Below, one piece after another: positions 1-18,655 of a DNA stretch of 64,000 nt. A model generated the notes under the pieces. It was not told the DNA's origin. It saw only the letters and a list, made by a program, of their open reading frames with translations, and searched no databases. Both the position numbers and the translations under genes were made by a program. Every line of letters starts with the position of its first letter. The stretch's first letter is position 1. The stretch is from an uncultured archaeon (GTDB lineage Archaea; Thermoproteota; Bathyarchaeia; Bathyarchaeales; Bathycorpusculaceae): assembly GCA_963782915.1 (NCBI GenBank), contig CAWALK010000023.1, positions 96,001 to 160,000 of the forward strand, written 5' to 3'.

Positions 1-9
1 AACTGAGGT

Positions 10-290
10 CTTGTGCTCGCACCAGCCTACCCCCCCTCTATTTATAGGCACAACAAATGCAGAGGAAAACGGAGTCCTGTCAAGCGTTTGTTGGTTTTTG
101 GCGTTGGGGTATAGGCGTTTGTAGGTTGATTTTTAGGTTTGCTATGCGTCTGTGCCAGGGGCTAAACGGGTTAGGGATTTAAGCGGGGCTTTGTTGCTCT
201 GCCAGCTACCCCCCTCCCCTATATATACACTAAATTTCTGAATAACTTTGCAAACAATGAACAGCGCAATGCAAATCGGGCAATAGCATA
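10..290 (+). repeat. Dispersed intergenic repeat modules (C-string+TATA-like module; CAATGCAA..GGGCAAT module)
   Basis: 30-230 resembles 22376-22575 in the order TATTTATAGGC..TGCAGA..GCGTTTGTTGGTT..CTATGCG..AGGGGC..TTTGTTGCT.TGCCA..CCCT; 247-289 resembles 56207-56260. Confidence 0.6.
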
Positions 291-1238: not shown

Positions 1239-1366
1239 CGCGGGGGTAAAGCGGATTATATGGGTTTCGCAGGGAAAGACCCTGTGTTTTTGGGCTGGGT
1301 TAAAGACTTATTCAGTTATTATTGGGAAAAAGGAAAACGGCTATAAGCGCTAGCCGATTGGCGCAA

Positions 1367-2104
1367 CTATTTTTCGAGAAGCGTTTGTAGTAGCTTGATT
1401 GCTGCCCATGCCGCCAACGCGCTGGTATGCGGATTGTCTGGGTGTGGGTCGTTTGCGAAGCGTAGGGCCATTTCGCCGTATCGCCATTTGATGTTGATTT
1501 CGTGGGTGTTGCGTGTGACTTTAGGGTCGCTGATCACTCTAACTTTTACTTGGACCGGCTTAACCGTTAACGCCAAAGTGGCTGCAACGTTCATTTCCCG
1601 GGGGAACTGCCGTGCCGCCTCTTTCGCGGTGCCTTCATAGATTATTGCTTCTTCGGTGTTTGTTTTGTTTAGTGCTTTGGGGTTTTTGCGTGACGTTATC
1701 GTTACTTCGTCGATGCCTGCGTTGGCTGCTGCGGCGATGGCGTCTAATCCTCCGATTGCGCCCGCTGGAAAATGCACTTTGGGCTCATCCGCGTTTAAGC
1801 TAAGTAGTGCGCCTGTGCTCATTATGATTATTTCAGTGTTTGACTCCACCAGTTTCTCGTAGTAGTCGCGGACTGCCTGCTGCCCCGCTGCCTCCACTAT
1901 GACTTTGGGTTTGGAGGCAATTAATTCGTCAACGCTGCTTGCGATTTTAACTCGGAACTGGAGGTCATGCTTTAGTTTCTGGGCTTTGGCGGCGTCAGTG
2001 TCGAAGACGACGAGTTCGTCGCAGACAACTATTTTGCGGTCAATTGCTTCTGCTAGGACGGTGCCGATTGCGCCGCATCCGATTAAACCAACTTTTTTTG
2101 CCAT
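1367..2104 (-). CDS. nadX: L-aspartate dehydrogenase (NadX family)
   Basis: GLIGCGAIG Rossmann motif, GAIGGLD, FPxxMNVAA, NPHTSALAA. Confidence 0.88.
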   Translation of the reverse strand: MAKKVGLIGCGAIGTVLAEAIDRKIVVCDELVVFDTDAAKAQKLKHDLQFRVKIASSVDELIASKPKVIVEAAGQQAVRDYYEKLVESNTEIIIMSTGALLSLNADEPKVHFPAGAIGGLDAIAAAANAGIDEVTITSRKNPKALNKTNTEEAIIYEGTAKEAARQFPREMNVAATLALTVKPVQVKVRVISDPKVTRNTHEINIKWRYGEMALRFANDPHPDNPHTSALAAWAAIKLLQTLLEK

Positions 2105-2115
2105 AATTTTTCACT

Positions 2116-4585
2116 TTAGTATTCTGGTTTTATGTATACTTGAGTTTGGGCGACTTGTCTGCCCTCAGCTTTTTCAGCTATTACTTTTATGTTTTCGATT
2201 TTTAGGGTTGCTGCGATGTCGATGGTTGCTTGGCGTATTGCGACGGCGGTGGCGTCGTCTGCGGTGTAGATGGTTAAGTTTTTGATGGGTGCGTTGAGTG
2301 AGAGTTTCTTTTCTGCTTTGTCGCGGCGGATTTCGCTCATTATGGCGGTGATTAAGTCGCCGTCTTTCTCAGCTGCCTCATCAACCAGTGAGGCGTTGAA
2401 CTTTGGCCATTGCGAAACCTGTATGCTCTTGTAGCCTTTGCCATCCATGTACATGTACTGATAGATTTCTTCTGCCATGTGTGGGGTGACTGGGGCGAGG
2501 AGTTGTAGCATGCGGTAGAGTACCTCATAGAGGGTGTGTTGTGCTGCGGCGGTGTTTGCTTTGCCGTAGACTTCGGGGCGGTATAATCTGTCTTTGATGG
2601 CTTCGACGTAGAAGTCGCAGAAGACGTGCCAGGTGAAGTTGCGGATTTCCTCTACTGCGATGTTGAATTGGCATTTTTCGTAGGCTTCGGTGACTTTTTT
2701 GGTGATGTTCTCGGTTTTGCTAAGGATCCATTTGTCGAGTAGTTGGAGGTCCATTTCGTCGCTGGCTTTTGGCGTATAGTTGCCCAGCAAGTTGCTTGCG
2801 AATCCGGAGGCATTCCAGAGTTTAACCAGGAAGCGTCTGCCGTATTCGACGTCTTGGGCGCGGTAGGGTATGTCTGAACCGGTTGCTCCTCCGCCTGCTG
2901 CCCATTGGCGGACTGCGTCGGCTCCGTACTTGTTGAGTGTTTCCGGTGCGGCAGCATAGTTTTTGAGTGATTTGCTCATTTTTCTGCCATCGGCGCCTAA
3001 GACCATGCCGTTGATGAGTACGCTGTTGAAGGGGCGCTCGTCGAAGAGTGCTAGGTGGCGTACCATGAGGTAGTATGCCCATGTGCGGATGATGTCGGTT
3101 CCGGATGGGTGTATGCTTGCCGGGATACAGGCGCTTCCAGTCCGCTCGGTCTGGCCAGCCAGCGTGGACGGCGCAGGTGATTGAGCTATCCATCCAAGTA
3201 TCCATAACATCCTGTTCGCCGCGGAAGTCTATGCCGCCACATTTGGGGCACTTCTCGATTCGTGGGCCCTCAAGCTTGGGGTCAATCGGAACCCAGCCTT
3301 CCTCCGCGATTATCATTTCGCCGCAACCCTTACAGAACCACACCGGGATCGGAGTGGCGAATAAGCGTTGGCGGCTGATTACCCAGTCCCAATTCAAGCG
3401 AATGCGCCCAGTCGATCAGGCGGTTACGCATGTAATCTGGGTACCAAGGTATTGCCTTAGCGTTCTCCTCAACTTTGTCAGTTAACTCCATGTTTTTCAT
3501 GAACCACTGTTTTACTTCGAGAATTTCGACGCCGGTCTTGCAGCGGTCGCAGACGCCGACTTCCTGCTGGATTTTTTCGCTCTTCTCAAGCAACCCAGCT
3601 TCGGTGAGGTCTTTGACTATGGCGGCTCGGGCTTGGTTAATGTAGAGGCCAGCGTATTTGCAGCCTGCCTCGCTAATTTGGCCGGTCTGGGTTATGAGGC
3701 GGATGACGGGGAGTTTGTGTTTTATGACCGTTTTTACGTCTTCCTTGTCGCCGTAGGTACAGATTTGCATGGCGCCAGTGCCGAATTTGGGGTCGACGGC
3801 TTCGTCAGTTATGATTGTGACTTCGCGGTTCATGAGTGGCACATTGATTTTTCTGCCAATGTATTTGGCGTAGCGTTCGTCTTTGGGGTTTACTTCGACG
3901 GCGACGCAGGCGGGGATGAATTCGGGGCGGGAAGTCGCAATCAGCAGGTACTCTTGCTGCCTGCGAGGTGGTATTTGATGTAGTGGAGCGTGCCCTCTTT
4001 TTTGACGTGGTCAACTTCTGCGTCGGCGATGGCTGTTTCGTCGCGTGGACACCAATTAACTGGATGTGTGCCCTGATACATGAAGCCCTTCTGGTAAAGT
4101 TGGATGAAGCTGAGTTGGGTGCGACGCCAATAGTCGGGGTCCATGGTTTTGTACTCTGTAGTCCAATCGATGGAGGCGCCCATTTTGAGGATGCCTTCCT
4201 TCATCATGGCAATGTATTTCTCGACCAGTTCGATGCACCAGGCGCGGAACTGGTCTGGGGGAACATCGCGTTTGCGGATGTTTTTGGCTTTTTCAACTTG
4301 GATCTCTATGCCTAAGCCGTGGCAGTCCCAGCCCTGCGGGAAGAGCACGTTGTAGCCTTGCATGCGTTTGTAGCGGGCTACCATGTCGAAGTACGTCCAG
4401 TTTAGGACGTTGCCCATGTGGAGTTCGCCTGAAGGGTAAGGCGGAGGCGTATCGATGCTATAGGGGACGCGTGATTTGTCGTTCCAGTCGTAGTGGTATA
4501 GGGCCATTTCTTCCCATTTGGCTTGCCATTTAGCTTCGATTTCAGTGAAATTGTAATCTTTAGGCATAGGCTGCATGAACATCAA
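2116..4585 (-). CDS. valS: Valine--tRNA ligase, split into 4 ORFs by indels (probable assembly errors)
   Basis: DTPPPYPSGELHMGN (HIGH), GWDCHG, DPKFGTG, WVISRQR, DTWMDSS, KMSKS, collinear across frames. Confidence 0.95.
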
Positions 4586-4753
4586 TCCTAATGTTACTGT
4601 TTGACTACAGCAAGACTAAGCTAAACCCTAAAAACATTACCCTAAATTAAAAAAAGTAATTTTGTGCCTTAGGGCTAATATTGCCGCCAATATAGAAACC
4701 TGCCGTTTAATCCCAAGCACTTAATCGTTTATTCACTTGGGCTATTGATTTTG

Positions 4754-5161
4754 CTAAAAAAACTCTCTCGGAGTCAGTATGCTTGTTTTTTTGTAGCAGC
4801 CCAGTTTAAGAAGATGGTTATCTCCTGTTATAATATAGTCAGCTCCAGATGCTACAGCGCATTCTATTATCTTATCGTCTTCAGCATCTTCATCTATGAT
4901 ATGCAACTTTAACTTTGGTTTGACTATTGTTGAGTTGACTTCGATGGCGCGTAGGATTTCTTTTTGTTTTACATCCGCCTTTTGTAGGACGGTGGCGATT
5001 TTTGGGTAAAGGAGGACTTTAGAGATTTCAAGTAGGATGTCAGGACTAATGTAAATTGTTAGGTCCTGTTTTGCTTGGGAAAACTCGTCGCTTAGAACCT
5101 TTTTCATAAAGATTGAAACCCAAACGTTGGTGTCCAAGACTACTTTGACTTTCTTGCCCAC
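4754..5161 (-). CDS. PIN-domain toxin (VapC-like, PIN_3)
   Basis: VVLDTNV, DAEDDKIIECA, IITGDNHLL; overlaps upstream antitoxin. Confidence 0.9.
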   Translation of the reverse strand: MGKKVKVVLDTNVWVSIFMKKVLSDEFSQAKQDLTIYISPDILLEISKVLLYPKIATVLQKADVKQKEILRAIEVNSTIVKPKLKLHIIDEDAEDDKIIECAVASGADYIITGDNHLLKLGCYKKTSILTPREFF

Positions 5162-5403
5162 TCGACTGCCTCAGCCACAATCGTATCGACATCAATAGAT
5201 TCTTCGCTGGTTGCTTTTTCAACTTTGTTGGCGATGTCCTCGATGGAGCCTTCCTTTGTTTTTCTCAGCAGTATGTCTCCATTGCGGGTAAGTACCAATA
5301 GTTTTTCGCCGCTTTTTACTCCCATTTTTTTGCGTACTTCTCTGGGAATTACCACTTGGCCCTTAGCCGAAACCTTGATTATGTCCTCAATCTGCTCTGA
5401 CAT
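5140..5403 (-). CDS. AbrB/MazE/SpoVT-family antitoxin
   Basis: KVSAKGQVVIPREVRKKMGVKSGEKL. Confidence 0.9.
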   Translation of the reverse strand: MSEQIEDIIKVSAKGQVVIPREVRKKMGVKSGEKLLVLTRNGDILLRKTKEGSIEDIANKVEKATSEESIDVDTIVAEAVEWARKSK

Positions 5404-5571
5404 ATGTCTCAGTTAGTCTTACAAGTAAATAAATTTTTACTTTTCCTCCTATGAGACAAGAATACTCATAAAACGTTTAAAGTAGCTTTTTAGAAAATAT
5501 ATCGATTTTTAATCAAGTGACTATTCAGGATAAAACAATGAAACAAACCGCATTCTTCTAAAGAGAAAGTA

Positions 5572-6344
5572 TCAGCATTTCTCACATGACTGCTTAGCCG
5601 TATTCCCACAGCATCTTGGATTATCAAAATAGTCACGACCAACCCGTATGATACTCTGGTCCTGAGTCAAAAGCGCAACCTCGTTTGGCCAATAGTAAGC
5701 GTCACAAGATTCTTCATGTCCGATATGAACATCGCCAAATTGCAGTATAGAACTCTAACTTCTCCGAGGTCTTTGAGGTCTTGGCTATCTGCGATTTCAG
5801 GAGTTACTGCGATGTTGAGTTTTACGCGGTGTTTTTCTTTGGCCTCTTTTAGGGCAGGATGGATTTCTTTAACTACCTCGGGCAAGGTCATGAACATTGT
5901 AATTTCCCGCTTAGACCCTTGAATCAGGAGTTTGAGGCGGTTAACGATGCTTTTTTGCCCACGCAGAATATATGCGATTTCGAGTTCCTCAGGCTTCTCC
6001 GCACTATCATAGATGGGCGTCAATTTGCTTATGATGACATCCGCCTGCTTCATCTTCCCATCTAACTCGTCTTTTAGTTGCTGTTTGAGGTTTGTGATTG
6101 CTTCGTTTGGTGCGATGGGGCGATAAATCGATGGGGTGCTCTGCTGTATGCTTATCATGCCTTTTTTGGATAGGCTGTCGAGTGCGTAGTAGATTTTTGA
6201 GTCTGGGATTTTGGTTTGGTTGCAGAGTGCGCTTGCTGTTATGTTGGGGTGGGTTAGGAGTGTGGTGTATGTTAGGGCTTCGTGGGTTGTGAGGTTGAGT
6301 TCTTTGAGTTGGGAGATTATTTGGTTTAGGGCGGTGTCTTCCAT
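5572..6344 (-). CDS. TrmB-family transcriptional regulator with Cys-rich C-terminal tail (frameshift near 5690)
   Basis: LTTHEALTYTTLL..IPDSKIYYALDSLSKKG wHTH; alternative frame continues NEVALLTQDQSIIRVGRDYFDNPRCCGNTAKQSCEKC* to 5572. Confidence 0.85.
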
Positions 6345-6392
6345 GGCGGGTTTTCTTCTTCTGGTTTCTGGTGAGTATGTGTGAGAAAACCG

Positions 6393-6425
6393 TTAAATAG
6401 TTTTCTACTACCAAAAAGTAGTAGA
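6393..6425 (+). promoter_or_regulatory. hgcA promoter: TATA-like box followed by perfect 8-bp inverted repeat (putative operator)
   Basis: TTAAATA at 6393-6399; TCTACTAC-CAAAAA-GTAGTAGA at 6404-6425, just upstream of the ATG. Confidence 0.6.
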
Positions 6426-6435
6426 GAATGAGAAA

Positions 6436-7482
6436 ATGAGTAAACAAACATGCGGATGCAGCACCGCCAAACCAACCACACAAACCCAAAAAACAGCAAC
6501 AAAAATACAGCCCACAACCTCCATCACGGGCAAAGTGGAACTAAAAGACCACATCCTCGCCCGCTTAGGAATCAACCGACAAAACCACACAGTAACCCCC
6601 GGATTATACTCACTGGGAAACCCCAACCCCAACACACCCGTCTTCGTAACCGCAAACTACACCCTAAGCTTCGACGCACTGCGCTCCTCGCTAAAAAACA
6701 AAGACGCCTACATCCTAGTCCTGGACACCATGGGAGTCAACGTTTGGTGTGCAGCAGGCAAAGGAACCTTCGGCACCGACGAATTATTAAGCAAAATCGA
6801 AGCCACCCATCTAGCCGATGTAGTCGCCCATCGAAAACTAGTTTTGCCCCAACTCGGCGCCTCAGGAGTCAACAGCTTCGAAGTTGAAAAGCAAAGCGGC
6901 TTCAAAGTCGAATTTGGCCCCGTACGGGCAGATGACCTTCCAGAGTACCTAAAAACTGGAAAAGCCACCGCAGAAATGCGGCAAGTAAAATACCCCCTAA
7001 AAGACCGAGCCGTGCTAATACCCGTAGAACTCAACTCGGCAATCCTTCCCCTCATTGTCTCAGTAATCGCACTGTACATTCTAGGCGGCGCCTATCCTGC
7101 AATCGCAGCTGCCACCGCAATCTTGGCGGGAACTGCCCTGTTTCCTTTAGCGTTGCCTTGGTTGCCAACTAAAGATTTCAGCTCAAAAGGTTTCATACTC
7201 GGTGGCGTCCTGTCGTTGCCTTTGGCTGCAGTGGCGTTCTTGAGTGCTCCAGCCTCGGTAATGTGGCTGCGGGTCGCGGCGGGTTTGGCTTACGTCTTGC
7301 TAATGGCACCAGTTACAGCGTACCTTGCACTAAACTTCACAGGCGCATCAACCTACACGAGTCGAACTGGTGTTAAAAAAGAAATCTTCCGCTACATCCC
7401 CGCCATGGCTGCCTCCCTGATAATCGGGACAGTTCTCGCAGGCATAGTCATTGGAATGCACTTCTTCGGAGGTGCAATATAG
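6436..7482 (+). CDS. hgcA: Mercury methylation corrinoid protein HgcA
   Basis: Cap-helix motif NVWCAAGKG, VTANY.LSFD.LR, LPQLGA.GV, FGPVRA.DLP, C-terminal TM helices with LNFTG.STYTS.TGV.KE; adjacent hgcB. Confidence 0.95.
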   Translation: MSKQTCGCSTAKPTTQTQKTATKIQPTTSITGKVELKDHILARLGINRQNHTVTPGLYSLGNPNPNTPVFVTANYTLSFDALRSSLKNKDAYILVLDTMGVNVWCAAGKGTFGTDELLSKIEATHLADVVAHRKLVLPQLGASGVNSFEVEKQSGFKVEFGPVRADDLPEYLKTGKATAEMRQVKYPLKDRAVLIPVELNSAILPLIVSVIALYILGGAYPAIAAATAILAGTALFPLALPWLPTKDFSSKGFILGGVLSLPLAAVAFLSAPASVMWLRVAAGLAYVLLMAPVTAYLALNFTGASTYTSRTGVKKEIFRYIPAMAASLIIGTVLAGIVIGMHFFGGAI

Positions 7483-7761
7483 ATGTTCAACTCCTACCAA
7501 GAAACCACCCTGCAATTTGACAAAGACAAATGCATCGGCTGCGGCAAATGCAGCACCGTGTGCCCACACAGAGTCTTTAGCCAAAATGGCAACAAGGCAG
7601 AACTCGTAAACCCGTCAGCATGTATGGAATGTGGCGCTTGCCAACTTAACTGCCCAGCAGGCGCAATAACCGTGGAAAGCGGCGTTGGCTGTGCTGGCGC
7701 TATGATTCGGGCGGCACTTAAGGGCGAAAAGCTTGATAGCGGCAACTGCAGTTGCGGATAA
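7483..7761 (+). CDS. hgcB: Mercury methylation 2[4Fe-4S] ferredoxin HgcB
   Basis: CIGCGKC..CPH.VF, diagnostic CMECGAC..NCP, GVGCA, C-terminal CSC; starts immediately after hgcA stop. Confidence 0.93.
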   Translation: MFNSYQETTLQFDKDKCIGCGKCSTVCPHRVFSQNGNKAELVNPSACMECGACQLNCPAGAITVESGVGCAGAMIRAALKGEKLDSGNCSCG

Positions 7762-7775
7762 GGAGGACACACAGC

Positions 7776-8228
7776 ATGAACAAGCCGGAGCCAGCTTTCA
7801 AGATTCGACCAGTTAGGGCTTGATGACCTAAAAACTATCTCGCTCCCTTCTTTTGGGGTACAAGTTGCCGTTGGATGGGCTCGAAGGGACAAAGTTGTGG
7901 GTTCTTGAGTTGGGCGGTGGAGAGGTTGTGGGGGTTGCGGGTTTGGAGTTGTATGGCAATCAGGGTTTGCTGCGTTCAGTTGCAGTCGCAGATAGCATGC
8001 ACAATCGTGGCTATGGAGCAGCGTTAGCTAACTATGTGATATGTGAGGCAAGGAAGAGTCGGGTGCAAGAATTGTTTTTGCTCACAACAACAGCTCCTGA
8101 GTTTTTCAAGAAATTGGGATTCAAAGAAGAAAAACCGAGAAAAAGTGGTCGGCGGCATTGTGGACTCCGTTGAGTTCAAAAGTGCTTGCCCCAAAACCGC
8201 CATCCTCATGCGTCTACCCCTGGCTTAA
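7776..8228 (+). CDS. arsN2: Arsenic-resistance GNAT N-acetyltransferase, ArsN2-like (frameshifted)
   Basis: GGAGG RBS at 7762; LPLDG..VVGVAGLELYG..GLLRSVAV..LFLLTTTA.EFF..LGF / S.EF..ACP.TA..M. Confidence 0.8.
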
Positions 8229-8232
8229 TTAT

Positions 8233-8580
8233 CTACACCTTTTTGGTGGGGTAGGCAGCTTTGCCTATCACTTCAGATAGCTTCTCAGAGGAGGGCACAC
8301 CGCCATAGAGCACCAATTCGCCGTTGATGAATAGAGCTGGCATTGCATCCATGCCGTACTTGTCAAACAGGGGTTTGAGTTTGCTGAAGTCGCCGATTTC
8401 TTTTCCGTAACGGACCTCGGTAGCAGTCACAACTTCAACTGAAGCTTCGACGTTACTTTTGCCCAGTACTTCCTTCACTTTTGCTTTGTACTGTTCATCC
8501 ATTGGTTTAAGGGCTGGGTTGCAGCAGGAGAAAGTGAGGATTGAGATTTGCATTTTATTGGTCATAGAGGTGCTTCCCAA
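8233..8580 (-). CDS. Thioredoxin-fold protein with vicinal CC, ArsD metallochaperone-like
   Basis: SCCNP near N-terminus, G.DAMPAL.INGE....GVPS; overlaps the arsA 3' end. Confidence 0.65.
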   Translation of the reverse strand: MGSTSMTNKMQISILTFSCCNPALKPMDEQYKAKVKEVLGKSNVEASVEVVTATEVRYGKEIGDFSKLKPLFDKYGMDAMPALFINGELVLYGGVPSSEKLSEVIGKAAYPTKKV

Positions 8581-9469
8581 CCTTTCTGAGGCTTTCTATT
8601 CCATAGATATCGGTGTCAAAGAGCGGTACGTCTTTTCTTAAGATAGTTTTGAATCTGGTTTCGATTTCTTTGAAGTACTTTTCTTGTGTTGCTCTTCGTC
8701 GTTCAAGAAACCAGTTGCCCTTGAGAACCTCTGGCGGAATAACCTCGTTAACAACCAGTGACGCTACGTTTATGCCAAATTTGGATAGATCGTCGATGGC
8801 TCGTGCTGTCTCCTCAATCGGCAACTTCTCGGGTAAAAGCACGAGGTTGAAGGCGGATATGGTTTCGTCCGAGAGGCTTTTCACAGCTTGGTCGTATCGC
8901 TGTTTTTCTTTCTTCAACCCTTCCAGCGTGCTTTCATCCACGCCGCCTAATGCTTCGGCGAGCTCTTTTCTGTTCTTGATTTGGTTAGTCATGTATCCCG
9001 ACCAATCAAACGGCATCGACAGCTCCCTGAGAGTATGTCCTGTGGGCGCTGTATCGAACACTACATGGTCATATTTTTTGTCGCCAAGATATGTTACGAA
9101 TTGGTCGAATGCCGCCATTTCTTCTGCGCAAGGGGTGCTGATGGCGTCTTTGCCAAGGATTTGGTCAAAGTTTTGCATCATGCCTTGGAGTCGGGTTTGG
9201 AAGATGCCTGTTGCTTTTTTGGGGTTGATGTTTAACCCGCAGAGGTTTTGGATCTTGTCTATTTTTGTGATTTCGGTTTCTCCTATTTTTTGTTCATAGG
9301 TTGCTGAGAGGCTCACTGTTGGGTCGGTTGCGACGATTAGGGTGTCGTAGCCTTGGTCGGCTAGCCAGACGGCTGTTGAGGCTGCCATGGTTGTTTTTCC
9401 TACGCCTCCTTTGCCGCCGAAGAAGAGAAATTTTCGGTTTTCTATGAGTTTTTTCATTTCTTGTGTCAT
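8555..9469 (-). CDS. arsA: ArsA/GET3-family ATPase (single domain)
   Basis: GKGGVGKTT P-loop, TDP, PCAEE (metalloid-site Cys), FDTAPTGHT signature. Confidence 0.85.
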   Translation of the reverse strand: MTQEMKKLIENRKFLFFGGKGGVGKTTMAASTAVWLADQGYDTLIVATDPTVSLSATYEQKIGETEITKIDKIQNLCGLNINPKKATGIFQTRLQGMMQNFDQILGKDAISTPCAEEMAAFDQFVTYLGDKKYDHVVFDTAPTGHTLRELSMPFDWSGYMTNQIKNRKELAEALGGVDESTLEGLKKEKQRYDQAVKSLSDETISAFNLVLLPEKLPIEETARAIDDLSKFGINVASLVVNEVIPPEVLKGNWFLERRRATQEKYFKEIETRFKTILRKDVPLFDTDIYGIESLRKVGKHLYDQ

Positions 9470-9484
9470 ATATCGGTCACACCA

Positions 9485-9533
9485 ATATCGGATAAACCGA
9501 TATGCTTATAAGATTTCGTGTCGGTATCCGATA
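9485..9533. promoter_or_regulatory. Divergent promoter with two TCGG..CCGA inverted repeats flanking a palindromic TATA
   Basis: ATATCGG-ATAAA-CCGATAT (9485-9503), CTTATAAG (9505-9512), TCGG-TAT-CCGA (9521-9531). Confidence 0.55.
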
Positions 9534-9545
9534 GTGGTCAACACC

Positions 9546-10289
9546 ATGCAATCGCCCTCATCCGAAATCGCAGGCAACCTGCAAGCCAAAATAATGATGT
9601 TACTGCGAGAAGAGCAACTCTGCGGCGTAGACCTAATGAAGCGGTTAAAAATCAAAAGCCCCGGCACAATCTACCCTGTACTCGAGGCACTTAGAACAAA
9701 AGGCTTAATCGACTTCAAAATTGAAACCTCAGGCGCAGTCCGTAAAAAAGTCTATTCTCTGACAGAGACTGGCACCCAAAAGATGCAAGACCATCTGACC
9801 AGTTCAATGAAATTTTGCTGCGACACCTCCGAGCATATCAACCGAATCCTCGGTATTGTGAAGGAACTTATAGAGATCAAACGCAAAGAAAAAGTACTCT
9901 CAACCTTAGACCATGACGAGTTGAAACGTTACCTCAAAGCAGCGGACGTAACCTATTCAAGTGATCTGCAGGTTCCGGCTGGAACATTCGATAAGGCGTT
10001 GAGCTTTTTGGGCGTTGGCTGCTTAATCGGCAACGAAACCTCAGACATCGCCAACTATGTAAAACAGCTCTACCTAAGCTTGAAGAGAGGCGGGGTTTTG
10101 TTGGCGATTGAAACCCAGAAAACAGATAACATGTTTAGCCAAATCCTCTTCGAAGACGTTTTTGGATTAAAAGAGCCACCTGGATTACCCCTTGACGAGT
10201 TAAGGGCTGTTTTGGAGAAAGCGGGGTTCACCAATGTATCGGTTACGGCGAATATGGGTCTGCTCTTTGCTGTAGCACAAAAACCTTAA
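9546..10289 (+). CDS. PadR-family regulator fused to a degenerate class I methyltransferase-like domain, with CC motif
   Basis: SPGTIYPVL..L...GLI..RKKVYSLTETG; FCCD linker; C-terminal LKRGGVLL..ELRAVLEKAGF typical of the SAM-MTase fold. Confidence 0.75.
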   Translation: MQSPSSEIAGNLQAKIMMLLREEQLCGVDLMKRLKIKSPGTIYPVLEALRTKGLIDFKIETSGAVRKKVYSLTETGTQKMQDHLTSSMKFCCDTSEHINRILGIVKELIEIKRKEKVLSTLDHDELKRYLKAADVTYSSDLQVPAGTFDKALSFLGVGCLIGNETSDIANYVKQLYLSLKRGGVLLAIETQKTDNMFSQILFEDVFGLKEPPGLPLDELRAVLEKAGFTNVSVTANMGLLFAVAQKP

Positions 10290-10315
10290 CACCCCTTTAG
10301 GTAGCAAAATCTGTT

Positions 10316-10361
10316 GGTTGTTGTTGTGTATATGAGGGTTCTTGCCAACAACTACTATAGA
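10316..10361 (+). repeat. Dispersed (GTT)n/(AAC)n hairpin element, copy 1
   Basis: GGTTGTTGTTGTGTATA..CAACAACTACTATAGA; matches 36456-36500 and 50556-50600. Confidence 0.8.
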
Positions 10362-10377
10362 CAAAGTAGTTCCCTGA

Positions 10378-10815
10378 CTAATGGGTTAGGTCTTTTTTTA
10401 CTTCTGAGAGCGTATATTTTTCTTCTTCCCTACCAGTGTAGGGAGCTTCTTCCATGTCACCAAGGAATGTATGGATAACAGCGAGCAATTCATCCATCTT
10501 AACTGGTTTCAAAATGAAAGCTTCTGCGCCGTAATCGCGTGCTTTAGCTCCGGCTTCCGCGGATGGGTAACCGGTTATTATGAATTTGATTGTCTGCTGC
10601 AATTCATTCTTAGCTTTAGAAAGCAGGTCGGTTCCTTTCATGTCCGGGAGAATAACATCGATTATGGCGAGGTCATAGTGGCTGCCCTTTAGTTTATCAA
10701 GGGCTTCCTTAGCGGTTTCTGCGGTGTCGGTTGCGTACCCGTTTTTTTCTAGGACACGGCTTAATGATCGGAGTATGGATTGGTCGTCATCCACAATAAG
10801 GATTGTTTTTTTCAA
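10378..10815 (-). CDS. Stand-alone response regulator receiver
   Basis: ILIVDDD, DLAIIDVILPD..G, IITG, KP. Confidence 0.9.
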   Translation of the reverse strand: MKKTILIVDDDQSILRSLSRVLEKNGYATDTAETAKEALDKLKGSHYDLAIIDVILPDMKGTDLLSKAKNELQQTIKFIITGYPSAEAGAKARDYGAEAFILKPVKMDELLAVIHTFLGDMEEAPYTGREEEKYTLSEVKKDLTH

Positions 10816-10953
10816 AAATCTTAGCCTTCCAAAAACCTAAGTTGTCCACCTTAAATTTGAGCGGATTACGCTTTAAAAGTTGTGTTTAACGCTTAAGCTA
10901 CAACAGGCGTATCAAAAAAAGAACTGAGTAAGGCCGGGGAAATAAAAAAGAAA

Positions 10954-11619
10954 TTACTCTCTGCTCGAGAGTACATAGATGTAGTCTGCGGTATCTGCGC
11001 ACATGTCCGCTGCGTTTTCAAGGAACTCGATTAGGTCATCAAAAATTATAATCGCGCCCTTATTCATGATTGCACCATACTTGACAAACAACTTCTTAGT
11101 AGCCAAATACTCGTTATCTATGGTGTGCTCGATTTCTTCAACCTTCTTAGCCTCATTAATGGCCTGAGTTGGATTAGATGAAATCTTCTCTACACTACTG
11201 CGCAGCACATTAACCATGTCGACCAATTTGCCAGTCATCAACAAAGCCTTAGCGCTCAATTCCACTGGAATCTCTACTTCCCAAAGCATCTCGAGGCATC
11301 TAGCCACATCTTTGGTATGATCTGCCAGGGTATCTGCCCGCTTAACTAGGTGCAATAGGTCTTCGCGGTAATCCGCTAGCAAAGCGGTTCCCGTCGATAA
11401 CTCCATGAAGACTTCTGTGCGAAGCTTATCAACCCCTGCTTCTGTCTCATAGAGGTTGTCGATGTACTTTTTTGCTTCTTTAAAATTCTTTTCAGAGAAA
11501 CTTTTTGTTGCTTTATTTAGCCAAGTTACCGTGTCAAAGGCTTTAGCTATTTCACTATGCGCTAAATCTAAGCCTTTTGTTTTGCGGCGCTGAACGAACC
11601 AGTCGTAACTCTTCTCCAT
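10954..11619 (-). CDS. DUF47/PhoU-like phosphate transport regulator
   Basis: Two repeats E..VD.LR / IEH.ID; D.LAD..KD; LENAAD. Confidence 0.8.
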   Translation of the reverse strand: MEKSYDWFVQRRKTKGLDLAHSEIAKAFDTVTWLNKATKSFSEKNFKEAKKYIDNLYETEAGVDKLRTEVFMELSTGTALLADYREDLLHLVKRADTLADHTKDVARCLEMLWEVEIPVELSAKALLMTGKLVDMVNVLRSSVEKISSNPTQAINEAKKVEEIEHTIDNEYLATKKLFVKYGAIMNKGAIIIFDDLIEFLENAADMCADTADYIYVLSSRE

Positions 11620-11786
11620 GTGGTTAGCTCCCTTCTACAGTATTGGGTTCTTGCTGTTATAACCCTTATCTTAGTAACCGCTGCCAAAAGAAAATAACAT
11701 AAAATAAAGACGGGATTTTAAAAAACATAAAAATCTGTGTTAGCCATATCCAAAAAGCGGAGTAGGCTAACAACCCTATTTCAGGT

Positions 11787-12407
11787 TTAAGCTGGAGCTG
11801 GAACGTATGCTTGCACGTTTGCTTCACGATAGTACATTGCTTGTGCTGTGTAGAGTGTGATTGATACTGTTAGGCCGATGTCGTTGATGGTGATTGAGTC
11901 CGGGTTGATGATGTAGAGTACCATGGTGTATCCTGATGGCAACACGAGGTCGTTTACTGCAAGGCTAAAGTCGTATTGTGTTGTTCCGAAGGTCATATGG
12001 TTGTTGTCATCTCGTGTGAATCCTGAGTGGAAGGGCAAATCGTTGGCGATTGGGTTAGTGGTAATGGTGTATAGGACGAATTTGGTGTTTGCTGCGTCAT
12101 TCCAGGGGCTTTCTTGACCTCGAACAGCTAGTTTGTCGATGACTATGTCTCGACCACCAGTGTTAATGACCATGAGTGAAGCGATAGAATAGTCTGCGTC
12201 GCCTGCTTGCGCGGCTGCGTTGTGCCAGAGGTGCTGCTTGGTTAGGTGTAAGCTTTCTTCTTGGACACGTGTGCTTACGACGTTGATGGCGAAGTAAGTT
12301 ACTACGCTTGCCAACAGTACTGAGATTACCAGTATGATGAGGGTTGTTACGACTGTGCTTAGAGCATACTTGTTTTTCATTAATCTACGGTAGCGATTGT
12401 AGATCAT
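11787..12407 (-). CDS. Archaeal type IV pilin/archaellin-like protein
   Basis: Class III signal peptide KNKYA/LSTVVTTLIILVISVLLA; INTGGRD. Confidence 0.75.
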   Translation of the reverse strand: MIYNRYRRLMKNKYALSTVVTTLIILVISVLLASVVTYFAINVVSTRVQEESLHLTKQHLWHNAAAQAGDADYSIASLMVINTGGRDIVIDKLAVRGQESPWNDAANTKFVLYTITTNPIANDLPFHSGFTRDDNNHMTFGTTQYDFSLAVNDLVLPSGYTMVLYIINPDSITINDIGLTVSITLYTAQAMYYREANVQAYVPAPA

Positions 12408-12657
12408 TTTGTTTCACTTCTTGTTATTGTTTCCTTTTTAGGGCGGAAAAGTATATAACTATTGTGTAGTAAGACTAAAGATACACGTTACACGTATGAA
12501 AAAACCCTGAAAAAAGCCCTGAACAACATAGCACCTGAAAAAAACACGACAGCAATAACTTAAATTCAACCCAAAAAACCCCAAATTCAGTAACCAAACA
12601 ACACACCAATCAGCAGCGGCACAAAACTAATATTGCTCAAAAAAGCATATTCCACTC

Positions 12658-12752
12658 AGTTCTTGGGGAGCTGGAAAATGATCCGGCTGAGAGGATGCCT
12701 ATGTGGCATCGACCCTGCGAACCTGAACCAGGTAATACTGGCGGAGGGAAAA
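12658..12752 (+). promoter_or_regulatory. TPP (THI-box) riboswitch
   Basis: GGGGAGC..GCTGAGA..GACCC..AACCTGAACCAGGTAATACTGGCGGAGGGAA consensus blocks directly upstream of thiT. Confidence 0.92.
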
Positions 12753-12758
12753 CAAGTA

Positions 12759-13340
12759 GTGAATACCACAAAAGAGAATGCCCTGAATAGTGAATTTAAA
12801 AACCCAAATTCCTTTAGAAACCCAAAAGTTTTAGCTGAAATGGCCATCTTCACCGCTTTAGCCACTGTCTTAAGCACAATTATAATATACATTATGCCAC
12901 AAGGCGGCTCAATCACACTTGCCTCAATGGTGCCTATTATTTGGCTGGCGCTAAGAAGAGGTCCAAAAGTCGGTATTGCCACTGGAATACTCTATGGCTT
13001 CATCCAATTTTTAATGATGCCCTACATTGCACCAGTGACAAACCCAATAGTAGCATTAATCCAAGTGCTACTCGACTACCCAATTGCGTTTGGAGTGTTG
13101 GGGTTAGCCGGCTACTTTTCCAAATACCCAGTTGTCGGAGCCGCAGTCGGAGTATCACTGCGTTTTGTGATGAGCTTCCTTTCGGGCGCATTCATCTGGG
13201 CGGGAATCTACGCTATAGGATTAGACCCCTACGTCTACTCAGCTGTGTACAATGGAAGTTATATGCTGCCTGAACTCATCATAACAGTATTCGTTATATT
13301 CCTGCTTCAGGCAAGTAAAACCTTGAAGGCATATCTCTAA
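12759..13340 (+). CDS. thiT: Thiamine ECF transporter S component ThiT (start GTG 12759 or ATG 12840)
   Basis: MPQGGSIT..M.PI, RRG...G, Q.LLDYP.AF, YS.VYNGSY; TPP riboswitch upstream. Confidence 0.88.
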   Translation: MNTTKENALNSEFKNPNSFRNPKVLAEMAIFTALATVLSTIIIYIMPQGGSITLASMVPIIWLALRRGPKVGIATGILYGFIQFLMMPYIAPVTNPIVALIQVLLDYPIAFGVLGLAGYFSKYPVVGAAVGVSLRFVMSFLSGAFIWAGIYAIGLDPYVYSAVYNGSYMLPELIITVFVIFLLQASKTLKAYL

Positions 13341-14341
13341 TGGGAAAACTCGCCGCAAAAGACCTCCAAGAAATGCTCAACTGCATACCGCCCGATCCGC
13401 GGGTGGTGGTGCCGCCAATGATTGGCTACGATGCCGGCGTGCATCGCTTAGGCGACCAATACGTGGTGGTGGCAGCTGACCCCTGCACAGGCGTTCCCGA
13501 AGAATGGTTCGGCTGGTTACTCATCAACTATGCCGCCTCAGACGTGGCATTATCGGGCGCTAAACCCCAATATTGCACGGTTACGCTGCTTGGGCCACGG
13601 CCAACCGAGTCTGCTGTTTTTCAGAAGTTAATGAAGCAAACTTGCATGGCCGCCGACGAATTAGGCATCGCCATAGTCCGGGGACACACCGGCATGTACG
13701 ATAGCGTAAAAGAGGTACTCGGCGTCTGCACAGTATATGGAACAGTGAAGCCGGAAAAGCTGATTACTTCCGGCGGTGCAAAACCCGGCGACAACATTTT
13801 CTGCACAAAACCCCTGGGCGCTGAAACGATTACCAACTATTCATTAACGCATCCTGCGGTGGCGCGCAAGCTTTTTGGCATGGAAAAACAGCGGGAGTTT
13901 GCCGGCCAAGTGAAGCTGCAAAGTTGCGTTAAAGAGGCGCTTTTATTGGCTGAGGTTGAGGGTGTGCATGCGATGCATGATGCAACAGAAGGCGGCTTCG
14001 TATCAGCCCTAAATGAATTGGCTGGTGCATCGAATGTCGGCATAACTGTGAATTGGGAAAAAATTCCTATTCCGCCTGAAAGTCAGGTATTACAGAGGCA
14101 TTTTGGGTTAAGCGACCCTCAGGTGCTGGCGATGTCTTCCACCGGCACCATCTTAGGAGCCGTTATACCCGAATCAAAAGACAAAATCGCTTCAGCCCTC
14201 CAAAAACTTGGATTAACCGCATCTTTTATCGGCGAATTCACAGAAAACAAAGAAAGAATACTTGTTAAGGGCGGCATCAAAACAGCGTTTCCCGCCGTCG
14301 CTGATGACCCCTACACAGCCATGATGGCTTTTACTTCCTAA
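13340..14341 (+). CDS. AIR synthase-related (PurM/ThiL/HypE superfamily) protein
   Basis: GYDAGV, ADP, NYAASDVA.SGA.P, GHT, AMHDATEGG; coupled to thiT. Confidence 0.8.
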   Translation: MGKLAAKDLQEMLNCIPPDPRVVVPPMIGYDAGVHRLGDQYVVVAADPCTGVPEEWFGWLLINYAASDVALSGAKPQYCTVTLLGPRPTESAVFQKLMKQTCMAADELGIAIVRGHTGMYDSVKEVLGVCTVYGTVKPEKLITSGGAKPGDNIFCTKPLGAETITNYSLTHPAVARKLFGMEKQREFAGQVKLQSCVKEALLLAEVEGVHAMHDATEGGFVSALNELAGASNVGITVNWEKIPIPPESQVLQRHFGLSDPQVLAMSSTGTILGAVIPESKDKIASALQKLGLTASFIGEFTENKERILVKGGIKTAFPAVADDPYTAMMAFTS

Positions 14342-15209: not shown

Positions 15210-15319
15210 GTGGGTCGGTCCTTGGGTGCTGTTTAGAACATGCGTAGGGTTTGTGCTCTTAAAGCTTCTGGGCAAAATGGAGTCTATGCGCTAAATAGAC
15301 CCGCATACAGCAAGACGCA

Positions 15320-18444: not shown

Positions 18445-18655
18445 AGTATTCACAACTAAAGTTGATGGACTCTTTTTGACGCGAAGGAAATATAAAACTT
18501 TCCACATTATCGGTAAGTCGCTATACACCAAAAAAAGGCAACGCCAACGCCTCTAAAAAATTTTTCTACAAATTTCTTGATTAGTCGTTAAAACGATTAA
18601 AAAAACCCTGTTACCTATGGGTGAGGGGTTCACGCAAAAAACTGAACTATCAGTT

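What the first reader, a model, noticed from the sequence alone, without database searches (positions are those of the whole stretch)
6436..7761. Canonical hgcAB mercury-methylation genes in an apparent Bathyarchaeia-like archaeon
Seen: intact, adjacent HgcA (NVWCAAGKG cap helix plus TM domain) and HgcB (CMECGAC, GVGCA, terminal CSC). Known: this pair is required for methylmercury production, and tested archaeal methylators are methanogens. Inference: if the host assignment holds, an abundant sediment lineage not usually counted as a methylator has this capacity, probably through horizontal transfer.
Basis: partly seen in the sequence, partly recalled or inferred. Interest (0 to 1): 0.85.

Follow-up and report, generated by a model that had tools for sequence, protein, structure and literature searches.

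The report
Mercury-methylation genes in a Bathyarchaeia genome
A soil or wetland archaeon of the class Bathyarchaeia carries an intact, conserved pair of mercury-methylation genes inside a small gene cassette that sits at different places in a few related species, so a few members of this uncultured group may make toxic methylmercury, though no activity has been measured.

Summary
Window 6436-7482 (+) encodes a 348-aa HgcA and 7483-7761 (+) a 92-aa HgcB. Both score above NCBIfam's curated cut-offs (413 vs 275 bits; 117 vs 99), carry all expected motifs, and group with true HgcA, away from the fused HgcAB-like paralogs.

The host call also holds. Both flanks match same-genus genomes, two of which are public records titled Bathyarchaeia/Bathyarchaeota. 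An independent metagenome contig joins valS directly to hgcAB.

- The trait is rare: 4 of 120 genomes in the genus and 8 of 401 sampled in the class.
- NCBI already names HgcA in two related MAGs.
- Near-identical pieces lie in runs labelled soil metagenome, not sediment.

What is new is the context. hgcAB is part of a ~4.7-kb cassette: a divergent TrmB-family regulator with a cysteine-rich tail, hgcA, hgcB, an ArsN2-like gene, a thioredoxin-fold gene, an ArsA-family ATPase and a PadR-family gene. The cassette occupies four different genomic contexts in five genomes. Its promoter region carries a perfectly conserved palindrome.

HgcA from different Bathyarchaeia families do not form one clade (AU p = 0.007). 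No donor is resolved. Activity is untested. This is a new member of a known kind, of moderate interest.

The parts
2116..4585 (-). valS, the only valS in the genome, split over several frames. It is the conserved left flank of the variable region.
   Evidence: The N-terminal piece scores 275.6 bits to NF009687. No other valS was found in G000. The window has three single-base indels relative to 57 kin, at about 3126, 3397 and 3953. The flank is 70-81% identical at the nucleotide level across the genus.
4754..5403 (-). PIN toxin (4754-5161) and AbrB-type antitoxin (5140-5403). A separate insertion, not part of the hgcAB cassette.
   Evidence: TIGR00305 scores 80.2 bits and TIGR01439 scores 50 bits. 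HgcC (NF040962) scores only 42.8 bits against a cut-off of 70. The X3 and X2 contigs skip 4642-5570. The pair lies next to valS in G020, G023 and G024, which lack hgcA.
5575..6344 (-). TrmB-family regulator, divergent from hgcA. The ORF as assembled is 5667-6344; the cysteine-rich tail (CC ... CxxC) is read in another frame at 5575-5691.
   Evidence: PF01978 scores 62.3 bits. tblastn splits the match into two frames. Orthologues are 257-258 aa and end in DNPRCCG-x6-9-C (G088: CxxC). The window has a 1-nt gap relative to four kin, and the X3 contig has one extra base at 5691.
6393..6425 (+). Conserved promoter region: a TATA-like TTAAATAG (6393-6400) and a perfect palindrome TCTACTAC-N6-GTAGTAGA (6404-6425), 10 nt upstream of the hgcA ATG.
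   Evidence: Sequence read. The palindrome arms are identical in 5 of 5 genus loci; only the spacer varies. It is the only site in the 3.28-Mb genome at 2 mismatches or fewer. The role as an operator is inferred.
6436..7482 (+). hgcA: corrinoid protein with cap motif (Cys105) and a five-helix membrane domain.
   Evidence: dN/dS is 0.095-0.116 against G088 and G013.
7483..7761 (+). hgcB: 2x[4Fe-4S] ferredoxin with Cys70 and a C-terminal CxC.
   Evidence: dN/dS is 0.04-0.18.
7777..8173 (+). ArsN2-like GNAT acetyltransferase with its N-terminal part out of frame. The ORF as assembled is 7853-8173.
   Evidence: NF040501 scores 89.9 bits, below the cut-off of 125, with GNAT Pfam matches. G088 has a 147-aa ORF starting just after hgcB. 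The window has extra bases at about 7815-7845 relative to kin.
8233..8580 (-). Small thioredoxin-fold protein (MTH895/ArsE-like).
   Evidence: PF13192 scores 35.1 bits. TIGR00412 scores 26.5 bits, below its cut-off. Conserved in G088 and G013.
8555..9469 (-). ArsA/GET3-family ATPase, single-domain, 304 aa.
   Evidence: TIGR00345 scores 250.4 bits (cut-off 135), and PF02374 scores 260.6 bits.
9546..10289 (+). PadR-family winged-helix protein with an unassigned C-terminal domain. Last gene of the cassette; the likely start is 9546, within ORF 9387-10289.
   Evidence: PF03551 scores 40.8 bits. Orthologues match residues 54-299. Similarity to kin ends at the stop codon.
5581..10283 (.). The cassette as a unit.
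   Evidence: 77% nucleotide identity over 5581-10283 to G088:C8:234043-238757, which lies in a different genomic context. Partial copies occur in G060, G113 and G013.
12654..13340 (+). TPP riboswitch (12654-12765) and ThiT (12798-13340). The conserved right flank of the variable region.
   Evidence: RF00059 scores 60.1 bits. TIGR02357 scores 110.3 bits (cut-off 108.45). This block is collinear with valS in most of the genus.

Best explanation
This is a genuine hgcAB pair in the chromosome of a non-methanogenic Bathyarchaeia archaeon.

Inferred mechanism, from established knowledge of the family:
- HgcA binds a corrinoid through its CFeSP-like domain, with Cys105 of the cap motif as the lower ligand.
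- HgcA receives a methyl group from the cell's C1 pool. The genome has acetyl-CoA synthase and a cobalamin synthase.
- HgcA passes the methyl group to Hg(II).
- HgcB, with two [4Fe-4S] clusters, re-reduces the cobalt, and its cysteine tail may hand over Hg(II).

Shown here:
- The pair is intact and under purifying selection.
- It is part of a ~4.7-kb cassette: TrmB-family regulator, hgcA, hgcB, ArsN2-like gene, thioredoxin-fold gene, ArsA-family ATPase and PadR-family gene.
- In this genome the cassette lies in a variable region between valS and the thiamine genes.
- It lies elsewhere in the few other genus members that carry it.

Proposed, not shown: the divergently encoded TrmB-family protein, with its cysteine-rich tail, binds the conserved palindrome over the hgcA promoter and controls the operon, possibly in response to a thiol-binding metal or metalloid.
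For: **Identity.** HMM scores exceed curated cut-offs. Motifs and membrane segments are present. The fold matches. The protein sits in the true-HgcA clade, separated from fused paralogs at 100/100 support.

**Selection.** dN/dS is 0.04-0.18 in all 13 pairs computed.

**Host.** Flanks are conserved in 60 of 60 same-genus genomes searched. The X3 contig from another study bridges valS, TrmB, hgcA, hgcB and on to 10298 at about 90-92% identity. Tetranucleotide make-up is ordinary: 33% of random 4.7-kb windows lie further from the genome mean.

**Host metabolism.** No mcrA. CdhC scores 632 bits. CobS scores 151 bits.

**Cassette and mobility.**
- The whole cassette occurs in G088, flanked by DNA that lies on another contig in G000.
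- G060 and G113 share a third context, and G013 has a fourth.
- In G060, valS abuts the thiamine block; in G046 the gap is 1.7 kb, against 8 kb here.
- On a valS tree of 58 genomes, the 4 carriers need 4 changes, against a shuffled mean of 3.9.

**Regulator.**
- A TrmB-family gene lies upstream of hgcA in 5 of 5 genus loci.
- The palindrome is conserved in 5 of 5 loci and unique in the genome.
- The CC motif is kept in 35 of 35 close clusters.
- Eight contig lengths recur in both the HgcA and the TrmB hit lists.
Against: - No activity, expression or cofactor data exist. No RNA run was listed.
- No Bathyarchaeia is cultured for testing (recalled).
- The assembly carries single-base indels in valS (3), the TrmB-family gene (1) and the ArsN2-like gene, so 'intact' rests on a sequence of imperfect quality.
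- The model does not fold the cap motif as a helix, and pLDDT is about 60 there.
- The cassette is as diverged between carriers as valS is: 77% vs 77% for G088, and 76% vs 76% for G013. This also fits old vertical descent with relocation and loss.
- No integrase, transposase or terminal repeats were seen at the cassette ends. Flanking ORFs in G060 and G088 were listed but not all scanned.
- The TrmB family is known for sugar sensing. A metal-sensing role is inferred only from the cysteines and the neighbouring genes.
Confidence: 0.72

Rival explanations
1. The cassette was present in the ancestor of the genus and descended vertically. The patchy distribution comes from many losses plus a few relocations, not from transfer.
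For: Cassette and valS nucleotide identities are equal for G000-G088 (77% / 77%) and G000-G013 (76% / 76%). The genus HgcA sequences form one well-supported clade (100/99). G000 and G088 are close on both the HgcA tree and the valS tree. No mobility genes were seen at the cassette ends.
Against: Only 4 of 120 genus genomes score above the cut-off. The nearest kin of every carrier on the valS tree lack the gene, so 4 changes are needed for 4 carriers. The cassette sits in four different contexts. G060 groups with G000 and G088 on the HgcA tree (100/97) but with G013's half of the valS tree. At class level, one clade is rejected (p-AU 0.007).
Confidence: 0.3
2. The genes are real, but in this organism they do not make methylmercury. 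HgcAB would serve another corrinoid-dependent methyl transfer, for example linked to arsenic handling, or would lack a partner or cofactor.
For: The native role of HgcAB is unsettled in the literature (PMC10349881, passages). The cassette carries ArsN2-like and ArsA-family genes. In G013 it lies beside an arsenite methyltransferase (362 bits), an ArsR and two ArsC-like genes.
Against: Every residue and motif used to call methylators is present. By recall, all organisms tested with such a pair methylate Hg. The genome has a corrinoid synthase and a C1 pathway enzyme.
Confidence: 0.2
3. The contig or the bin is chimeric or contaminated, and hgcAB belongs to another organism.
For: hgcAB has 51.6% GC, which is the 98th percentile of genome windows of that size. 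The genome has 2.35% contamination. The assembly has indel errors.
Against: valS, a core gene next to the cassette, has 52.1% GC. Both flanks match 60 of 60 congeners. An independent contig bridges valS and hgcAB. Four other genus genomes carry the same cassette. The HgcA clade holds only Bathyarchaeia-labelled or same-genus rows.
Confidence: 0.03
4. The TrmB-family gene is an ordinary sugar-type regulator that merely lies next to hgcAB, and the palindrome is its own autoregulatory site with no effect on hgcAB.
For: TrmB family members are annotated as sugar-sensing. The CC motif is also kept in 77 of 85 more distant clusters, whose genomic context was not examined.
Against: The gene travels with hgcAB in all 5 genus loci, across four contexts. 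The palindrome lies between the TATA-like element and the hgcA ATG. The extra CxxC tail appears in all 12 tails printed from the close group and in none of the 13 printed from the distant group (printed tails only).
Confidence: 0.3

Closest known systems
HgcAB of confirmed methylators (Pseudodesulfovibrio mercurii ND132; methanogens such as Methanospirillum and Methanomassiliicoccus; organism names recalled)
   Same: Two adjacent genes. The cap motif N(V/I)WCA(A/G)GK, a five-helix membrane domain, and two CX2CX2CX3C motifs plus extra cysteines in HgcB. Scores are above the NCBIfam equivalog cut-offs. Identity to Methanomassiliicoccales MAG copies is 56-59%.
   Different: The host is a Bathyarchaeia genome with no mcrA found. 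The HgcB tail is CxC rather than CC, a variation also seen in other loci. An N-terminal CxC in HgcA is typical of this clade: 22 of 27 close clusters have it, against 12 of 93 others. The regulator is of a different kind.
Archaeal hgcAB loci preceded by an AbrB/MazE-like gene (HgcC, NF040962; Zhang et al. 2023, PMC10349881, passages)
   Same: An archaeal host and a small DNA-binding gene near hgcA. In 6 of 6 Methanomassiliicoccales/Methanomicrobiales loci examined here, the upstream ORF matches MazE_antitoxin.
   Different: The AbrB gene in this window scores below the HgcC cut-off (42.8 vs 70). It is paired with a PIN toxin, is absent from the X3 contig, and occurs next to valS in genomes without hgcA. 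The gene directly upstream of hgcA here is a divergent TrmB-family gene.
ArsR-controlled hgcAB of bacteria (Gionfriddo et al. 2023, cited within PMC10349881; not read)
   Same: Linkage of hgcAB to arsenic-related genes. In 5 bacterial loci examined here, the upstream ORF is ArsR-type.
   Different: There is no ArsR-type gene in this cassette. HTH_5 scores only 19.5 bits, below its cut-off of 22, on the PadR-family protein.
Fused HgcAB-like proteins (NF043039)
   Same: A corrinoid domain plus ferredoxin motifs. They occur in Bathyarchaeia too: 9 of 401 class genomes, about 377 aa each.
   Different: They form a separate clade at 100/100 support, and none of the nine matches the strict cap-motif pattern. 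The window protein scores 202.5 bits, below 285, on that model.
CFeSP large subunit (AcsC / CdhE) of the acetyl-CoA pathway
   Same: A homologous corrinoid-binding domain (PDB 2h9a and 4c1n at E 5e-13; Foldseek). The genome's own copy lies on contig C12.
   Different: It has no membrane domain and no Cys in the cap motif. It scores only 63 bits on the HgcA model.

Membership tests
HgcA (NF040863) | Whole-protein score above the curated cut-off, and higher than on paralog models | tested here: met
   413.1 bits against a cut-off of 275. The fusion model gives 202.5 bits (cut-off 285), and the ACS gamma model gives 80.3 bits (cut-off 306).
HgcA (NF040863) | CFeSP-like corrinoid-binding domain | tested here: met
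   PF03599 scores 52 bits. PDB CFeSP chains match at E 5e-13. Foldseek finds 9a0b_A at E 2e-19 and CFeSP chains at E 7e-7.
HgcA (NF040863) | Cap motif N(V/I)WCA(A/G)GK with the cysteine (motif as printed in PMC12484752) | tested here: met
   NVWCAAGK lies at residues 102-109. The AlphaFold model does not draw a helix there.
HgcA (NF040863) | C-terminal membrane domain of about five helices (recalled from the literature on HgcA) | tested here: met
   Hydropathy peaks lie between 201 and 339. The model has helices at 195-217, 219-242, 248-269, 276-299 and 310-345.
HgcA (NF040863) | Placement inside the HgcA clade, apart from fused paralogs | tested here: met
   100/100 split; 98 SH-aLRT in the quick tree that also included CdhD-domain rows.
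HgcA (NF040863) | Methylates Hg(II) in vivo | not testable with these tools
   No culture or assay is available, and no RNA run was listed.
HgcB (NF040864) | Score above the cut-off; two CX2CX2CX3C motifs; gene adjacent to hgcA | tested here: met
   117 bits against a cut-off of 99. The motifs start at residues 17 and 47. The ATG directly follows the hgcA stop codon.
HgcB (NF040864) | Extra conserved cysteine after the clusters and cysteine(s) at the C-terminus (roles recalled from mutagenesis work, not read here) | tested here: met
   Cys70 lies in GVGCA, and the tail is C89-S-C91. Tails across the true-HgcB loci printed vary among CC, CxC and single C.
HgcC (NF040962), HgcAB-associated AbrB-like protein | Score above the cut-off and consistent linkage to hgcA | tested here: not met
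   42.8 bits against a cut-off of 70. The gene is paired with a PIN toxin. It is missing in the X3 contig and in the other four genus loci.
HgcAB-like fusion protein (NF043039) | Single polypeptide, score above the cut-off | tested here: not met
   Two ORFs, and 202.5 bits against a cut-off of 285.
TrmB family regulator (PF01978 / PF11495) | N-terminal TrmB winged helix and TrmB C-terminal domain | tested here: inconclusive
   PF01978 scores 62.3 bits (cut-off 25.6), which is met. PF11495 scores 21.0 bits against 22.2 on the window's truncated ORF. Precomputed Pfam lists PF11495 for most orthologues. No sugar-binding role was tested.
ars operon proteins (ArsN2, ArsA) | Scores above equivalog cut-offs | tested here: not met
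   ArsN2 scores 89.9 bits against 125. ArsA equivalog TIGR04291 scores 205.5 bits against 650. Only the broad GET3/ArsA subfamily passes, at 250.4 bits against 135. They are therefore called 'ArsN2-like' and 'ArsA-family' only.

The most novel reading that the evidence does not exclude
In this soil and wetland Bathyarchaeia genus, hgcAB would be the cargo of a small, self-contained cassette that moves between chromosomal sites and responds to metals or metalloids. A TrmB-family repressor would sense Hg(II) or As(III) through its CC...CxxC tail, release the unique palindrome over the hgcA promoter, and switch on hgcAB together with the ArsN2-like, thioredoxin-fold and ArsA-family genes.

That would mean two things. 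First, mercury methylation, or a related metalloid methylation, is a regulated, selected trait rather than a side reaction. Second, some Bathyarchaeia are real methylmercury producers outside the methanogens.
Probability: 0.2. Interest if true: 0.75.

Novelty: new member of a known kind. Interest (0 to 1): 0.45.

Why it matters
Methylmercury risk models and hgcA surveys assign archaeal methylation to methanogens. A non-methanogenic, uncultured archaeal group of soils and wetlands with a conserved, selected hgcAB adds a candidate producer.

The same cassette is seen at four different chromosomal places within one genus, and other genus members have valS next to the thiamine block with little or nothing between them. 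This gives a concrete case for how the patchy distribution of hgcAB can arise. An earlier survey reported finding no hgcA near known insertion elements (PMC7438021, passage).

The divergent TrmB-family regulator with a cysteine tail, together with the conserved palindrome, gives a directly testable handle on hgcAB regulation in archaea. It stands beside the ArsR and AbrB-like candidates already discussed in the literature.

Tried and rejected
**Expression.** The look-up of sequencing runs listed no RNA holder. No run held half of the sampled words; the best share was 0.15.

**Recent transfer between G113 and G000.** The cassette is 88% identical. Only three other shared segments could be compared, at 83%, 71% and 67%, and G113 is 66% complete. 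The result is inconclusive and was dropped.

**Composition as a sign of foreign origin.** GC is high but equals that of valS, and tetranucleotide distance is ordinary. Rejected.

**HgcC reading of the AbrB gene.** Rejected.

**hgcA-hgcB fusion in G060.** The single 454-aa frame is explained by a frame change near HgcA residue 311-316, because the HgcA C-terminus is still encoded in another frame.

**MerB in the genome.** None was found, but the control genomes were also silent, so this is uninformative.

**Terminal repeats or mobility genes at the cassette ends.** None were seen in the boundary alignments. Flanking ORFs of G060 and G088 were listed but not scanned against families.

**Donor lineage.** The backbone of the HgcA tree is unresolved, so no donor is named.

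**Rows left out of the HgcA trees.**
- L001, L010, L029 and L038 as duplicates or broken copies.
- L027, L033, L034 and L035 as partial.
- The careful tree also left out the seven CdhD-domain rows.

**valS tree.** It covers 57 of the 120 genus genomes plus one outgroup. G113 has no valS assembled.

**Literature.** Nine searches were made. No paper in the library pairs hgcA with Bathyarchaeota or Bathyarchaeia as a carrier in its main text, and no paper holds hgcAB together with TrmB. Supplements were not opened and may list such MAGs. Subscription journals are not covered. Zhang et al. 2023 on Asgard hgcAB (PMC9938162) is not held.

**Not used.** Complex prediction, the search of protein representatives and the protein-atlas search.

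**Correction.** Entry 5 and this report give 6404-6425.
Full report
**What is there.** The first is 6436-7482 (348 aa, with NVWCAAGKG). The second is 7483-7761 (92 aa, with CMECGAC and GVGCA, ending in CSCG). The second ATG directly follows the first stop codon.

Against NCBIfam, the first ORF scores 413.1 bits on the HgcA equivalog model (cut-off 275), covering profile positions 12-319 of 325. The second scores 117 bits on the HgcB model (cut-off 99). The models of the two look-alike families fail: the HgcAB-like fusion gives 202.5 bits against 285, and acetyl-CoA synthase gamma gives 80.3 against 306. Pfam sees the CdhD-type corrinoid domain and the 4Fe-4S motifs.

A script places the cap motif at residues 102-109 (Cys105) and finds about five hydrophobic segments between 201 and 339. 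In HgcB it finds two CX2CX2CX3C motifs, Cys70, and a C89-x-C91 tail. Among the true-HgcB tails printed, the ending varies between CC, CxC and a single C, so CxC is within the natural range.

An AlphaFold model built on a 34-row alignment (mean pLDDT 78.4) shows an alpha/beta domain followed by five long helices (195-345). The cap motif itself is not drawn as a helix and has pLDDT near 60. Foldseek's best match is the deposited HgcAB model 9a0b_A (E 2e-19, 41% identity), followed by CFeSP structures. By sequence, PDB holds only CFeSP relatives (E 5e-13).

**Whose genome.** The window is G000:C23:96001-160000, in a genome of 3.28 Mb and 25 contigs, 93.5% complete with 2.35% contamination.

A scan of species-representative genomes found the nearest HgcA genes in records titled Candidatus Bathyarchaeota or Bathyarchaeia archaeon (93%, 76% and 64% identity). 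Aminicenantes, Methanomassiliicoccales, Anaerolineae and Methanomicrobiales MAGs follow at 52-63%. Two of those named loci are sequence-identical to loci of G013 and G113, which the genome tool classes in the same genus as G000. The host label therefore rests on kinship and does not depend on hgcA.

G000 has no mcrA match. It has acetyl-CoA synthase CdhC (632 bits) with a CFeSP-type paralog beside it (63 bits on the HgcA model), and a cobalamin synthase (151 bits).

**Is the contig sound?** Three lines of evidence say yes.
- A 16-kb stretch around the genes was compared with 60 other genomes of the genus. valS (1368-4642) and the TPP-riboswitch/thiamine block (12623-15280) match in nearly all at 70-81% nucleotide identity and are usually collinear.
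- Public contigs were laid on 1300-13300. Run X3, from a different study than the best holder, has one 5,053-nt contig covering 4391-4642 (start of valS), then 5570-7738 (TrmB-family gene, hgcA, hgcB), then 7841-10298, at about 90-92% identity. This is independent physical linkage of a core gene to hgcAB in a related population.
- hgcAB has 51.6% GC against a genome mean of 45.1%, but valS has 52.1%. The cassette's tetranucleotide distance from the genome is ordinary.

One caution applies. The only valS of the genome has three single-base indels relative to 57 relatives. The TrmB-family gene has one, and the ArsN2-like gene is disrupted near its start. Because valS is essential, I read these as assembly errors. 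hgcA and hgcB have none that break the frame.

**How common is the trait?**
- In the genus, HgcA scores above the cut-off in 4 of 120 genomes (G000, G088, G013, G060). One further copy is broken into several frames (G113), and one genome (G094) has only a fused paralog.
- In 401 genomes sampled across the class, 8 are above the cut-off: three in this genus, one in another genus of the family, and four in two other families. Nine more hold roughly 377-399-aa fused HgcAB-like proteins.
- In the protein collection, about 27 clusters are 66-94% identical to the window's HgcA. NCBI already names two of them 'mercury methylation corrinoid protein HgcA' of Candidatus Bathyarchaeota / Bathyarchaeia archaeon.

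**Phylogeny.** A careful IQ-TREE tree of 38 rows was built. Duplicates, partial copies and the short CdhD rows were left out.
- True HgcA separates from the fused paralogs at 100/100.
- The window's protein falls in a clade of Bathyarchaeia rows only: (G000, G088) at 95/64, then G060 at 100/97, then G013 at 100/99, then a further Bathyarchaeota MAG at 100/97.
- The HgcA sequences of the other Bathyarchaeia families fall elsewhere on an unresolved backbone.
- Forcing all ten Bathyarchaeia rows into one clade costs 39.5 log-likelihood units and is rejected (p-AU 0.007). I had seen a quick tree first, but the group was defined by taxonomy.
- No donor can be named.

Between genus orthologues, dN/dS is 0.095-0.116 for hgcA and 0.04-0.18 for hgcB, which shows purifying selection.

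**The cassette.** tblastn and blastn maps show one conserved gene set:
- a TrmB-family regulator (-)
- hgcA, hgcB and an ArsN2-like acetyltransferase (+)
- a thioredoxin-fold protein and an ArsA/GET3-family ATPase (-)
- a PadR-family protein (+)

The ArsN2 and ArsA equivalog cut-offs are not reached, hence the '-like' and '-family' labels.

The whole unit (window 5581-10283) occurs at 77% nucleotide identity in G088. There it is flanked by DNA that in G000 lies on contig C22. G060 and G113 share a third context and hold the first four genes. G013 has a fourth context, in which the cassette follows an arsenite methyltransferase (362 bits), an ArsR (90 bits) and two ArsC-like genes.

In G060, valS abuts the thiamine block. 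In G046 the gap is 1.7 kb. In G050 only a response regulator and a DUF47 gene lie between them. In G000 the gap is 8 kb. Similarity to kin stops at the ends of the first and last genes of the cassette, and no repeats or mobility genes were seen there.

On a valS DNA tree of 58 genomes, the four carriers need four changes, no fewer than shuffled labels need (mean 3.9). The nearest kin of G000 lack hgcA.

Against recent transfer, cassette and valS identities are equal for G000-G088 (77% / 77%) and G000-G013 (76% / 76%). I therefore favour movement or transfer within the lineage over time (about 0.6). Ancient presence with relocation and many losses remains possible (about 0.3).

**Regulation (inferred).** The 91-bp spacer between the TrmB-family gene and hgcA is highly conserved in all five genus loci. 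It holds a TATA-like TTAAATAG (6393-6400). It also holds a perfect palindrome, TCTACTAC-N6-GTAGTAGA (6404-6425), whose arms never vary. The palindrome is the only such site in the genome at up to two mismatches.

The regulator's orthologues are 257-258 aa and end in DNPRCCG-x6-9-C (G088: CxxC). The window encodes the same tail after a one-base frame change. CC is kept in 35 of 35 close clusters and in 77 of 85 more distant ones. Eight contig lengths recur in both the HgcA and regulator hit lists.

For comparison, the ORF upstream of hgcA was checked in named loci:
- MazE/AbrB-like in 6 of 6 Methanomassiliicoccales/Methanomicrobiales loci
- ArsR-type in 5 bacterial loci
- MarR in one
- other or none in four

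This matches the pattern reported by Zhang et al. 2023 (PMC10349881, passages). This genus would therefore use a third kind of candidate regulator.

The AbrB gene at 5140-5403 is not HgcC. It scores 42.8 bits against 70, pairs with a PIN toxin, is skipped by the X3 and X2 contigs, and lies next to valS in genomes without hgcA.

**Literature.** In the searchable library, no paper pairs hgcA with Bathyarchaeota or Bathyarchaeia as a carrier in its main text. One 2025 study lists Thermoproteota among 83 putative methylator MAGs of marine sediments (PMC12484752, passages). No paper holds hgcAB together with TrmB. McDaniel et al. 2020 (PMC7438021, passages) argued for repeated transfer of hgcAB but found no hgcA near known insertion elements. 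Supplements were closed, subscription journals are not covered, and the Asgard hgcAB paper is not held. The statement that tested archaeal methylators are methanogens is recalled.

**Verdict.** This is a real, canonical hgcAB pair in a real Bathyarchaeia chromosome. The added value is the portable cassette, its link to arsenic-type genes, and the TrmB-family regulator with its operator-like palindrome.

Noticed in passing
window 2116-4585, about 5691, about 7815-7845: Single-base indels break valS (three places; it is the only valS in the genome), the TrmB-family gene and the ArsN2-like gene, while hgcA and hgcB stay open. This looks like an error-prone assembly rather than gene decay. Other split ORFs in this window may have the same cause.
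   Followed up: partly
window 12654-13340: A TPP riboswitch (RF00059, 60.1 bits) lies upstream of a ThiT-type thiamine transporter (110.3 bits) in an archaeal genome. It is conserved next to valS across the genus.
   Followed up: partly
window 5-70: A 25-55-nt motif containing a C-run and TTTATAGG occurs at 23 other places in G000 (88-100% identity) and at many places in G088. It may be a shared promoter element or a small dispersed repeat.
   Followed up: partly
L039 and L045-L052 (G094, G446, G354, G282, G326, G208, G320, G272, G248): Nine of 401 sampled Bathyarchaeia genomes encode roughly 377-399-aa fused HgcAB-like proteins (156-175 bits on the HgcA model). None of the nine matches the strict cap-motif pattern; the three printed read NVWCAARG, NVWCAAGG and NVWCAAAG. 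They form their own clade.
   Followed up: partly
window 6436-6480 (HgcA residues 1-15): The HgcA clade of this genus starts with MSKQxCGC or CNC. A CxC lies in the first 25 residues in 22 of 27 close clusters, against 12 of 93 more distant ones. Together with the CxC tail of HgcB and the CC...CxxC tail of the regulator, all three proteins end or begin in cysteine pairs.
   Followed up: partly
L056 (G013:C24) 3981-6940: In one congener the hgcAB cassette lies directly after an arsenite methyltransferase, an ArsR, a small ferredoxin and two ArsC-like genes, forming an arsenic island with hgcAB inside it.
   Followed up: yes
window 9546-10289: The PadR-family protein has a roughly 150-aa C-terminal domain with no Pfam or NCBIfam match. 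It is conserved in G088 and G013 (63-74% identity).
   Followed up: no
window 16000-18531 and 11787-12407: An 843-aa ORF has no NCBIfam match, and among the five genomes probed it is shared only with G113 (83% nucleotide identity). A 206-aa protein with a weak archaeal pilin N-terminal match has paralogous DNA on contigs C25 and C11 (82-86%).
   Followed up: no
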